From: Octopus vulgaris
Taxonomy: Eukaryota
NCBI GenBank assembly: GCA_951406725.2
Contig: OX597816.1
Location: 7,440,001 to 7,504,000, forward strand
Direction of reading: 5' to 3'
Length of the DNA stretch: 64,000 nt
The notes beneath the pieces are model-generated. The model did no database searches. It saw nothing but the letters and a program-made list of their open reading frames with translations, and was not told the origin of the DNA. How positions within the stretch are numbered: position 1 is the first letter of the stretch; every line of letters starts with the position of its first letter. Positions 6,946 through 50,026 of the stretch are shown in pieces. The translations under genes and the position numbers were made by a program.

Positions 6946-8728
6946 AAGGGAGAATATGCATGGGTGAAAGTAGTGAGGTGTTGTATGACTTGAAGTTGGC
7001 ACGTTATGGATTATAGCTGTGATTGGGGCTGATTTGTAATGGATTCTTTGGAATGTAATATTTGTGTGTGTATTTCTTTTATTCTAAAGTTGAGGTATAT
7101 TAATCGTTTGTCGTAGACCCGTTAAGAAGTGGCCTGTATTTTGTAATAAAGAGAGTTTCTTTACTTATTCGTTGTCTCGAGATTGTATCGTCCCTAAATT
7201 GGTAGAGGGGGAAAATCCTGAAGCCTGGTGTTTTGTTGTTGGCGCAAGTATCTATGTGTTGGCTGAAAGCTATTTTTCTGTTTTGGGGTATTTTTATCTG
7301 GGATCTGTGCAGGGCCATTCTTTTACGCAAACTATTTTTTGTTTGGCCTATGTACTGCTCTTGACACCCGGAGCAGGTTAGTGAGTATATTAGGTTCTCC
7401 GAAGCACATGTGAAGTTGCTTTTCACTGTAAACCGTTGTCCCTGTTTGAAGGAGAACTCTGATCCCTCAATTAGATAGTCGCATATCCCGCAATTGGGTC
7501 TTCCACATTTTTTTACTGTCGGCTTCTGTGTTGAAGAGTGTATTCGGGCTGAACCTTTCCTCCGGAGTCGTTGACCTAGTGGCAAAATTTGAGACTAGTA
7601 ATTAGAACTGTTTGCCATTGGAATGCATTGTGTAATTTCACGCTGTGTTGGCCATTTCTTAAACGCTTTGGTTTTCGTTGTTTCAGAATGTCTCCTTCGC
7701 TTAACTTCGTCTCGACAAATGAACGGTTAAGACCTGTGTTTTCGACTCTGAAGACAATAAAACTATGTATCTAATGAATAAGTCATGTGTAACTACACGA
7801 AGCAGGTAATTATATCTGCTTCATTTTGACCGAACCATGACGAATAAACACAAGATCAGCGAGTCTTACAATGGATAAAGAGAATATGAACTCTACAGAA
7901 ATTTCGAGATAGTCATTAACGTTATGACTCCTTTGTTGCCTTTGAATGCAATAATTACTTTCAATGACATAAATATGTAAACGAATACAAGTGTGCTTGC
8001 TGCGGCATGTTTATAGGGCGTTTCTGAGTGGATTTCTTTATTTTGTTAGTAAAAGAGCTGTCCAGTCTGTGAACAGTATCGACTTCGCTGGAATATGTGG
8101 AATAAATTGCTACGTAATGTGAAAGTGTAACATGAGAGTCGTTAGGCGACTTCGTCATGGCAGATCGACGTCGGCAAACCGCTTTGGAGAACAACAGAAT
8201 AATATTTTTTCTTTTTTTTTTGGAGTAAACAATGTATGTGTGTGTATGTGCATGTGCATGCGTGCGTGTGTGTGTGTGTGTGTGTGTGTGCGTGCGTGTG
8301 TGTGTGTGCGTACATATAAAAAAAACACTTTTTCTTTTATTCAAGCTATCACAAAACATGTCGCACATAAATAAAGATATAAATAGGATTGGTGACACTA
8401 GTAGTATAATATTGTTTACCCTCTGTCAGATATTTCACAATATCATTTTATCTGATGATTTAATTATAATAAAAGTGTCCGTGTTGATCTCTAACACGTA
8501 TATTAAACTCTGATATTCAATTTCCTAAAAAAATATTGAAATATTCAATTAAAAAACGTACGGTTTGTATTTCTTTTCCGAGTCAATAAAGTACTGTACT
8601 CCTCTACTGTATATATACACCTTGCCGTATACATATACTTTGATGTATATATAAACCTTGCTAAGAACATACACCTTGCTTTATATATACATGTCGTGTG
8701 TATACAAGTTAAAGTAAGTTTACATACA

Positions 8729-48227: not shown

Positions 48228-48312
<85 letters not shown>

Positions 48313-48512
48313 ATCTTTGAATGAACTTTTCGAAATGGCCGCCAACTTGTCACGGTGGCAACTAATTTATGGTTTCAATAAATGGCGCCAAAACATGTCA
48401 ATGGCTCCCTCACAATACGAAGCTTCGCTTGAAACGTTTCCTGTCCTGCATGAGTGCTCCTTGAACAGTTTAATACCTTCTTATACCTCTTCAGTCAGTG
48501 ACACGCTTCGGT

Positions 48513-48573
<61 letters not shown>

Positions 48574-49031
48574 AGATTCTTCAAATCTGATCTATTAGTG
48601 GCACAGCAAAGATCTGTAAGACATTCCAAAGATTCTGCATCTGAGATTCTTTGAGGTGAACAGACGCAGACACTTGGTTGTGTGCATCGACAGCTCAACC
48701 AACACACAAACTCAACCACACATTTAGAAACACCGGGAATTTCCTTAAACTCAAAGAGTTTTGTCGTTTCGTCAGCGACCACCGTCTTGAGCTTTCTTAA
48801 GAACATAAATAAAAGTCGAAGGATAACAGATGTGTATAGGACAAATGCAAAAGCACGTATAAAGCAAAAGAAAGCAAGGGCAAAGGGAAGGGGCTGAAAA
48901 CCTGGTCCTGCCTGGTCTTTCATACAAAACATCTTTGAGAAACAAGCAGCAGCAACAACAACAACAACAACAGCAGCAGCAGCAAAAACAACAACAATAA
49001 CAACAGCAACAAAGTTGGAGACTTGGCAGTG

Positions 49032-49624
49032 GCGAGTAAAGTGCAGAGGGTTGAGATGTCAGGGCCATAAACACAGGCAAATGGATGGAGTGGAGAGTGT
49101 GGGTCGCGGGTGGCAAGGCTTGTTGTTGACAACTGCACACAGCATTTTGATTTACATTGAGAATGTCAAAGACAAATGCTGGTCTGTGGAACACATTCCG
49201 GGGTCAGCAGGTTTAATCATCATCATCATCATCATCATCATCACCACCACCACCACCACCATCATCATCATCACCATCATCACCATCATGGCGACACTAA
49301 CAGGCATTCTGTTCACATGACACACTTGGCGCACTTCCTGTCGATAGTGATGATGTTGCTGCTGTTGGTGCTGGTACTGGTGGTGGTGGTGGTGGTGGTA
49401 GGGTCTTCTTAGTTAGCTCAAGTCCGTTATGACGTTCCCCCCTTTACAGGTGTAGAAAATGTTTTTTTCTTCTTTTCTTTTCCGACCCTTCTTTCAGACC
49501 CCAAATCTTGTCTGCAGTTGTCAACAGCCTTGCCACTCGCGACCCACGCCGTTCACCCCCATCTATTGTGTGTGTTATTGTATGGCTGTATGGCCTGATA
49601 TTTCAACTGCTGCAGTTTACTTGC
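49032..49624. other. Long imperfect inverted repeat (predicted RNA duplex)
   Basis: 49032-49149 is complementary to 49502-49624, with nested inner complementarity. Confidence 0.8.
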
Positions 49625-49660
49625 AGTTTAATTCGTCACAGAAATAAACACTTCGTTGAA

Positions 49661-49832
49661 AGGCGGCGAGCTGGCAGAATCATTAGCAAGCCGGGAGATA
49701 TGCTTAGCAGTATTTCATCTGTCTTTACGTTCAGAGTTCAAATTCCGTAGAGGTCGACTTTGCCTTTCATCCTTTCGGGTTCGATTAATTAAGTACCAGT
49801 TGCATACTGGGTCGATCTAATCGACTGGCCCC
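49661..49832 (+). mobile_element. SINE family B
   Basis: ggcggcgagctggcagaa head plus core. Confidence 0.85.
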
Positions 49833-49903
49833 CTATCTGTCTGTCCACTGATCTAGACAGACAGACAGATAGATAGAGAGACAGATATCTATCTATCAAT
49901 CCG

Positions 49904-49997
<94 letters not shown>

Positions 49998-50026
49998 TGG
50001 CCGCAGTTCTGAGCTGAAACTAGAAA

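What the first reader, a model, noticed from the sequence alone, without database searches (positions are those of the whole stretch)
49032..49624. ~600-nt RNA hairpin with strand-biased mismatches, a possible ADAR substrate
Seen: 49032-49149 pairs with 49502-49624. For example gtgggtcgcgggtggcaaggct (49099-49120) pairs with agccttgccactcgcgacccac (49526-49547), and tgttgacaactgca pairs with tgcagttgtcaaca. Inside this, ggtctg/cagacc, gggtc/gaccc, (CAC/CAT)n against (GTG)n and cactaacagg/cctgt..tagtg continue the stem, so even the microsatellites pair. By eye about 7 of 8 transition mismatches are G-U on the plus strand, which equals A-C on the minus strand. It matches no repeat in the window and lacks TE hallmarks. 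Inference: selection on an RNA duplex, either a G-U-stabilised plus-strand structure or a minus-strand duplex with the A-C mismatches ADAR prefers, relevant to the extensive A-to-I editing known in coleoids.
Basis: partly seen in the sequence, partly recalled or inferred. Interest (0 to 1): 0.75.

Follow-up and report, generated by a model that had tools for sequence, protein, structure and literature searches.

The report
Single-copy hairpin favouring plus-strand RNA
Two unique ~120-base stretches of DNA, about 39 kb upstream of a water-channel gene in a likely octopus genome, are inverted copies of each other whose mismatches favour pairing on one strand, so they likely form an RNA stem kept by selection, but transcription, editing and conservation are untested and a neutral leftover of DNA repair remains possible.

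Summary
The inverted repeat is real but smaller than reported. It is a ~110-bp imperfect stem (49032-49147 with 49503-49624) closing a 355-nt loop. In the loop only two complementary microsatellites pair beyond chance; the other claimed inner pairs do not. Both arms are single-copy in the 2.8-Gb genome, whereas 6 of 6 control inverted repeats were dispersed repeats. Of 18 mismatches, 10 are G-U and 4 are G-G on the + strand, against 2 A-C (p about 0.04-0.11 by alignment). The + strand duplex is 30 kcal/mol more stable than the - strand one (neutral simulations: P 0 to 0.013). A strong + strand splice-acceptor-like site lies 5 nt before the 3' arm and AATAAA 19 nt after it. Best reading (0.5): an inverted duplication likely kept as a + strand RNA stem, its 3' arm predicted to be a non-coding last exon paired to upstream intron. 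Main rival (0.35): a neutral relic of a repair or micro-inversion event. The minus-strand A-C/ADAR reading, a MITE and an endo-siRNA source are unlikely. No host gene, transcript, editing or orthologue was shown.

The parts
49032..49147 (+). 5' arm of the inverted repeat (purine-rich); predicted intronic partner strand
   Evidence: single copy
49503..49624 (+). 3' arm of the inverted repeat; predicted body of a non-coding last exon
   Evidence: single copy; covered by an independent contig of run X19 (49413-49687, 5 other letters, 2 gaps)
49097..49137 (+). core of the stem: 23-bp helix (with 49527-49549) and 13-bp helix (with 49513-49525), pairing probability about 1.0 on +
49217..49289 (+). 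(CAT/CAC)n microsatellite in the loop
49345..49399 (+). (GAT/GCT/GGT)n microsatellite complementary to the (CAT/CAC)n tract
   Evidence: only simple-repeat matches elsewhere in the genome
49148..49216 (.). unique 5' spacer, not homologous to the 3' spacer
49400..49502 (.). unique 3' spacer, ending in the pyrimidine tract
49475..49497 (+). splice-acceptor-like site (18 of 20 pyrimidines, then CAG) ending 5 nt before the 3' arm; use predicted, not shown
   Evidence: 50 such sites in 1,728 kb of strand
49643..49648 (+). AATAAA, possible poly(A) signal 19 nt after the 3' arm; use predicted, not shown
   Evidence: 3 AATAAA on + in 48300-50000, so weak alone
48937..49014 (.). (CAA/CAG)n microsatellite, left flank
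49660..49830 (.). high-copy short interspersed repeat (likely a SINE; label inferred), right flank

Best explanation
The element is a single-copy inverted repeat, likely born as a local inverted duplication, whose two ~120-nt arms are likely kept by selection as a + strand RNA stem, with the 3' arm predicted to be a short non-coding last exon that pairs with a complementary stretch of its own upstream intron. Shown: the arms, their single-copy status, the mismatch spectrum, the strand asymmetry in duplex stability, and the acceptor-like and AATAAA motifs at the edges of the 3' arm. Inferred: origin by staggered-break micro-inversion or fold-back repair; + strand transcription; selection that tolerated G-U and G-G but purged A-C and other mismatches. 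Predicted: in the unspliced RNA the stem would cover the exon right behind its acceptor, lowering or gating splicing and 3'-end formation, and ADAR would edit the duplex, mostly as a by-product, as it does other long duplexes in cephalopods.
For: Single copy: 2 candidates only for each arm; two 21-22-nt patterns with 2 or 1 mismatches hit only the two arms; 6 of 6 control inverted repeats tested (of 26 low-repeat pairs found in 864 kb) had dispersed copies. Mismatches: G.T 9, T.G 1, G.G 4, A.C 2, C.C 2. G-G is the most stable 1x1 mismatch in the folding parameters, by 2.6 kcal/mol over A-C or C-C. Duplex -154.7 (+) against -124.2 (-) kcal/mol; a difference this large arose in 0 to 1.3% of 400 neutral simulations in each of six settings. 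With tandem-repeat columns left out, 0 of 82 background inverted pairs were as wobble-biased. Neutral substitutions in nearby repeats make G-U on + in 47% of transitions, so there is no regional bias. The strong acceptor-like site (0.029 per kb of strand) ends 5 nt before the 3' arm, and AATAAA follows 19 nt after it, both on +. The nearest gene found (aquaporin) is also on +.
Against: No host gene found: 507 translated stretches scanned against Pfam (1,658 open non-repeat frames of 40 aa or more exist in the 464 kb) gave, apart from transposon domains and weak sub-cut-off hits, only the aquaporin 39 kb downstream and a histone-fold gene 316 kb upstream. The wobble p is only 0.04-0.11, and the motif and spectrum tests were chosen after seeing the data. 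With microsatellite columns left in, 7 of 100 background pairs are as biased. Absolute + strand stability is unremarkable when mismatch positions are randomised (P 0.14 and 0.26). Differences are not clustered away from a protected core (p 0.06-0.62), and six indels break the register. One contig of run X19 carries 49541 G>A, which would turn a core C-G pair into C-A on + (the partner base was not seen). Wobbles are 9 G(left).T against 1 T.G, more one-sided than pairing selection predicts (p about 0.05).
Confidence: 0.5

Rival explanations
1. Neutral relic: a one-off micro-inversion with staggered breaks, or a fold-back/template-switch repair, left inverted copies around a non-duplicated spacer. 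The arms have since drifted, and the wobble bias and flanking motifs are chance.
For: The anatomy (single-copy inverted ends, non-homologous spacer, no TSD) fits inverted duplications at inversion ends (PMC7584159, passages) and fold-back insertions (PMC11724301, abstract; those are much shorter, about 5-34 bp). Slippage-type indels, evenly spread differences, no host gene, and local inverted repeats are common: 141 pairs in 864 kb.
Against: Strand asymmetry P up to 0.013; 0 of 82 clean controls as biased; acceptor-like site at the arm edge; complementary microsatellites in the loop seen at only 1 of 58 other tracts.
Confidence: 0.35
2. Relic with a strand-coordinated mutation burst: cytosines on the + strand of the 3' arm were lost (C to T, C to G) while single-stranded during formation. 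This mimics G-U and G-G enrichment without selection.
For: 13 of 18 mismatches have G on the left arm (expected about 0.28; p about 1e-4 before correcting for 8 classes); 1 to 3 of 85-130 background pairs were as skewed, and the strongest of these was a microsatellite artefact. Repair-associated single-stranded DNA is open to deamination (PMC9262586, abstract; PMC4728370, search listing).
Against: It needs roughly a third of the arm's cytosines to be hit, far denser than the clusters I recall; the flanking bases show no single context; two of the four G-G columns sit beside 1-nt gaps and depend on alignment (7 G.T and 2 G.G under the strictest scoring).
Confidence: 0.05
3. Minus-strand duplex selected for A-C mismatches as ADAR editing sites.
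For: Nine adenosines on the - strand lie opposite C. ADAR's preference for A-C is recalled (papers seen only as a search listing). On - the inner microsatellite helix is well defined.
Against: The - strand duplex is 30 kcal/mol weaker and carries 4 C-C mismatches; no neighbour preference at those adenosines; no acceptor-like site on -; site-selective A-C editing matters mainly for recoding, and no coding frame was recognised.
Confidence: 0.04
4. Last surviving copy of an extinct or very low-copy terminal-inverted-repeat transposon (MITE or foldback element).
For: Long terminal inverted arms around an unrelated interior; such elements make up the tested controls.
Against: No other copy; no TSD. 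The genome search skips very common words and has limited reach below about 70% identity.
Confidence: 0.04
5. Hairpin-RNA gene that yields endo-siRNAs, like Drosophila hpRNAs (family recalled).
For: Long imperfect stem rich in G-U on one strand.
Against: DICER2 and siRNA-type Argonaute are reported lost in Mollusca (PMC11114477, passages); no trans target with complementarity in the genome.
Confidence: 0.02

Closest known systems
Exon-intron duplexes read by ADAR (GluA2/GluR-B type; title seen in the reference list of PMC5558901, mechanism recalled)
   Same: Unique-sequence arm predicted to pair an exon with a nearby intron on one strand, with imperfect pairing
   Different: No coding exon recognised; the partner lies upstream; the stem is longer (about 110 bp); the exon-side adenosines are not opposite C; no editing shown
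Inverted-repeat dsRNAs hyper-edited in octopus and squid (PMC5625713, PMC9068888; passages)
   Same: Long intramolecular duplex in non-coding DNA with arms under 2 kb apart and over 65% alike
   Different: Those are mostly formed by genomic repeats; this one is single-copy and strand-biased
Inverted duplications at inversion or fold-back breakpoints (PMC7584159 passages; PMC11724301 abstract)
   Same: Single-copy inverted ends around a non-duplicated spacer, no TSD
   Different: They predict no strand bias in later mismatches and no splice or poly(A) motifs at the arm edges
Drosophila hairpin RNAs (hpRNA endo-siRNA loci; recalled)
   Same: Long imperfect hairpin with G-U enrichment
   Different: Molluscs are reported to lack DICER2 and siAGO; 355-nt loop; no target found
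MITEs
   Same: Inverted arms around a short interior
   Different: Single copy, no TSD

Membership tests
MITE / TIR transposon | Dispersed copies in the genome | tested here: not met
   positive controls
MITE / TIR transposon | Target-site duplication flanking the inverted ends | tested here: not met
   one 5-nt match among about 880 position pairs, the number expected by chance
MITE / TIR transposon | Terminal inverted repeats | tested here: met
ADAR-edited long dsRNA | Long stable intramolecular duplex predicted | tested here: met
ADAR-edited long dsRNA | Both arms in one transcript | tested here: inconclusive
   no usable RNA data (see Tried and rejected); no host gene found
ADAR-edited long dsRNA | A-to-G differences between RNA and DNA of one animal | not testable with these tools
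   only contigs of unmatched runs were offered
Exon-intron (ECS-type) duplex | One arm is an exon with used splice sites | tested here: inconclusive
   acceptor-like site and AATAAA found by motif only; no protein match
Exon-intron (ECS-type) duplex | Pairing conserved with covariation across species | not testable with these tools
   no related animal genome held; the metagenome scan found 0 matches
hpRNA endo-siRNA locus | Phased 21-nt small RNAs from the arms | not testable with these tools
   no small-RNA reads available; pathway reported lost in Mollusca
Known Rfam family (miRNA or other) | Match at the gathering score | tested here: not met
   0 in the window; 11 weak matches, all far under the cut-off and none on the outer arms
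Breakpoint inverted duplication | Spacer inverted, or one arm absent, in an outgroup | not testable with these tools
   no outgroup sequence

The most novel reading that the evidence does not exclude
An octopus non-coding RNA gene built from a non-transposon inverted duplication: its whole last exon is locked in a G-U/G-G-tuned duplex with its own upstream intron, so that ADAR editing or temperature switches its splicing and polyadenylation, and with it transcription running toward the downstream aquaporin.
Probability: 0.08. Interest if true: 0.7.

Novelty: new member of a known kind. Interest (0 to 1): 0.4.

Why it matters
Most non-coding cephalopod editing falls on repeats (PMC9068888 and PMC5625713, passages). 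A single-copy duplex shaped by selection would be a clean, mappable case for asking whether non-coding dsRNA structure is maintained in coleoids and whether editing gates splicing or 3'-end choice. The test used here (single-copy status plus strand asymmetry of mismatch stability) could be run genome-wide to list such elements. If the arms prove neutral, the locus is an ordinary repair scar.

Tried and rejected
Expression: no RNA holder listed (the query held a repeat, which probably explains the small shares). The two runs guessed to be RNA that were laid (X1, X4; 2 of 24 listed runs) and the two runs of unknown kind (X19, X20) left 48942-49400 without cover. These blanks are no evidence either way. 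No second laying of reads was obtained, so variation in the 5' arm and in other species stays open; 104 difference rows were not shown. Orthologues: the core pattern had 0 matches in metagenome contigs. Earlier findings of this scan: none. Coding reading of either arm: no Pfam match; no homologue for one of the three open frames of the 3' arm (the other two were not searched there, and no positive control showed that octopus proteins are in that collection). A possible first exon at L043:2776-2868 matched nothing. Regional transcription-type mutation bias as the cause of the wobble excess was rejected (concept from PMC2927911, abstract). The first background calibration (7 of 100) was inflated by microsatellite columns and was redone (0 of 82). 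In the tandem-masked BLAST pipeline the candidate itself scored only 6:2 on a truncated alignment. Background pairs share arms and are transposon-derived, so they are not fully independent; 6 pairs with regions over 450 nt were dropped from the realignment. The bacterial promoter scan is not applicable. Assembly artefact is unlikely: the arms differ by 18 substitutions and 6 indels. Literature searches listed no paper on this locus; they cover open-access text only, and no supplements were read.

Full report
Setting. The window is G000:C3:7,440,001-7,504,000 in a 2.8-Gb, 227-contig genome.

Observation. The outer inverted repeat is real: 49032-49147 against 49503-49624, 72% identical with gaps, E 9e-11 in the window, and no shuffle of 1000 comes near its alignment score. 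Folding gives -275 kcal/mol, z -13.0, on + and -259.5, z -10.2, on -. The main alignment has 92 Watson-Crick columns, 18 mismatches and 6 indels. The claimed inner stem is not supported. The unique inner halves do not align (p 0.77 and 0.85; centre 0.61), and with the microsatellites fixed the inner region folds no better than shuffles (55 of 60 as good on +, 9 of 60 on -). Only the complementary (CAT/CAC)n and (GTG/GGT)n tracts pair, an arrangement found at 2 of 59 (CAY)n tracts, this one included. The element is therefore a stem of about 110 bp closing a 355-nt loop.

Copy number. Each arm finds only itself and its partner in the genome, and two core patterns with mismatches allowed hit only the two arms. 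The unique loop sequence has no other copy. As a control I found 141 local inverted pairs in 864 kb, 27 of them not repeated within the sample. Six of the other 26 were searched, and all six had dispersed copies (1190, 1681, 239, 6, 478 and 151 candidates). No TSD was found and there is no Rfam match. It is not a member of a MITE family that these searches can see.

Mismatch spectrum. On + the mismatches are G.T 9, T.G 1, G.G 4, A.C 2 and C.C 2. G-U against A-C is 8-11: 2-3 over six scorings, p 0.039-0.109. Background pairs are balanced overall (642:625). Seven of 100 were as extreme when microsatellite columns were left in, and 0 of 82 when they were left out. Substitutions in repeats around the locus would make G-U on + in 47% of transitions, so regional mutation bias does not explain the excess. 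G-G is the most stable single mismatch in the energy model, so 14 of 18 mismatches are of the two best-tolerated kinds on +. The duplex is -154.7 kcal/mol on + and -124.2 on -; that gap arose in 0 to 1.3% of 400 neutral simulations in six settings. Against this, absolute stability is ordinary when mismatch positions are random (P 0.14 and 0.26), differences are evenly spread, and 13 of 18 mismatches have G on the left arm, which a one-sided loss of C could also give. One contig of run X19 has 49541 G>A, which breaks a core pair on + unless the unseen partner base also changed.

Context. Pfam scans of 507 translated stretches out of 464 kb found, besides transposon pieces and weak hits, an aquaporin on + starting 39 kb downstream and a small histone-fold gene 316 kb upstream. 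Not all 1,658 open non-repeat frames were scanned, and non-coding exons cannot be seen this way. On + an acceptor-like site (18 of 20 pyrimidines, then CAG) ends at 49497, 5 nt before the 3' arm; such sites occur 0.029 times per kb of strand. AATAAA lies at 49643. These were noticed after the fact, and AATAAA is common here, but stability, acceptor and poly(A) signal all point to the + strand and bracket the 3' arm like a last exon. No frame of that arm matched a protein family, and the one frame searched for homologues found none.

Mechanism. The origin is likely a local inverted duplication, as described at inversion ends (PMC7584159, passages) or by fold-back repair (PMC11724301, abstract). 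I put 0.5 on later selection for a + strand RNA stem that pairs a non-coding last exon with upstream intron. It would mask the exon behind its acceptor and would be edited by ADAR if transcribed, since octopus has exceptionally high hyper-editing of long duplexes (PMC5625713, passages) and squid non-coding editing falls mostly on repeats (PMC9068888, passages). A neutral relic gets 0.35 and a deamination burst 0.05. The minus-strand A-C reading gets 0.04: it has the weaker duplex, four C-C mismatches, no neighbour pattern and no acceptor. An extinct TIR element gets 0.04 and an endo-siRNA hairpin 0.02, since DICER2 and siAGO are reported lost in Mollusca (PMC11114477, passages).

Verdict. This is a genuine and unusual single-copy hairpin with modest, partly post hoc statistical signs of + strand RNA constraint, and no direct evidence of transcription, editing or conservation. 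It works like an exon-intron duplex if real; membership is untested. Novelty: new member of a known kind. Interest 0.4.

Noticed in passing
window:48309-48513: Unique, relatively CpG-rich stretch (observed/expected 0.95 against 0.71) with two YY1-like AAATGGC motifs on + (48333, 48380; motif name recalled; the two patterns hit 2 and 4 places in 864 kb). It could be a + strand promoter or enhancer about 700 nt before the hairpin.
   Followed up: partly
L015:4558-4752, L018:2954-3139, L019:248-442, L019:2760-2840 (G000:C3:7,528,558 onward, +): Multi-exon aquaporin (MIP family) gene with a CpG-rich upstream stretch of its own at L015:3890-4200.
   Followed up: partly
L030:2957-3077 and 8003-8122 (+): Small histone-fold gene (Pfam CBFD_NFYB_HMF; resembles CHRAC1 by recall), 316 kb upstream.
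   Followed up: partly
L043:2776-2868 (+): Short open frame with a strong donor site and CpG-rich upstream DNA; a possible first exon of an unidentified + strand gene whose intron could span the hairpin. No match found.
   Followed up: partly
window:4296-4742: A ~450-nt element with ~100-nt terminal inverted repeats and 1,190 candidate copies in the genome: a MITE-like family.
   Followed up: partly
window:19639-24720 (+): Two long open frames (524 and 1,149 aa) that look like an intact LINE (ORF1, then endonuclease and reverse transcriptase; read by eye).
   Followed up: no
window:7100-7591 (-): GIY-YIG endonuclease fragment, likely from a Penelope-type element.
   Followed up: no
window:48581-48755: A second, older interspersed repeat fragment just upstream of the hairpin (many contigs about 83% alike).
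   Followed up: no
window:49032-49624: All 6 transversion mismatches in the main alignment are G.G or C.C (5 of 6 in the BLAST alignment), against 15% in background pairs; C.C is not explained by pairing selection.
   Followed up: partly
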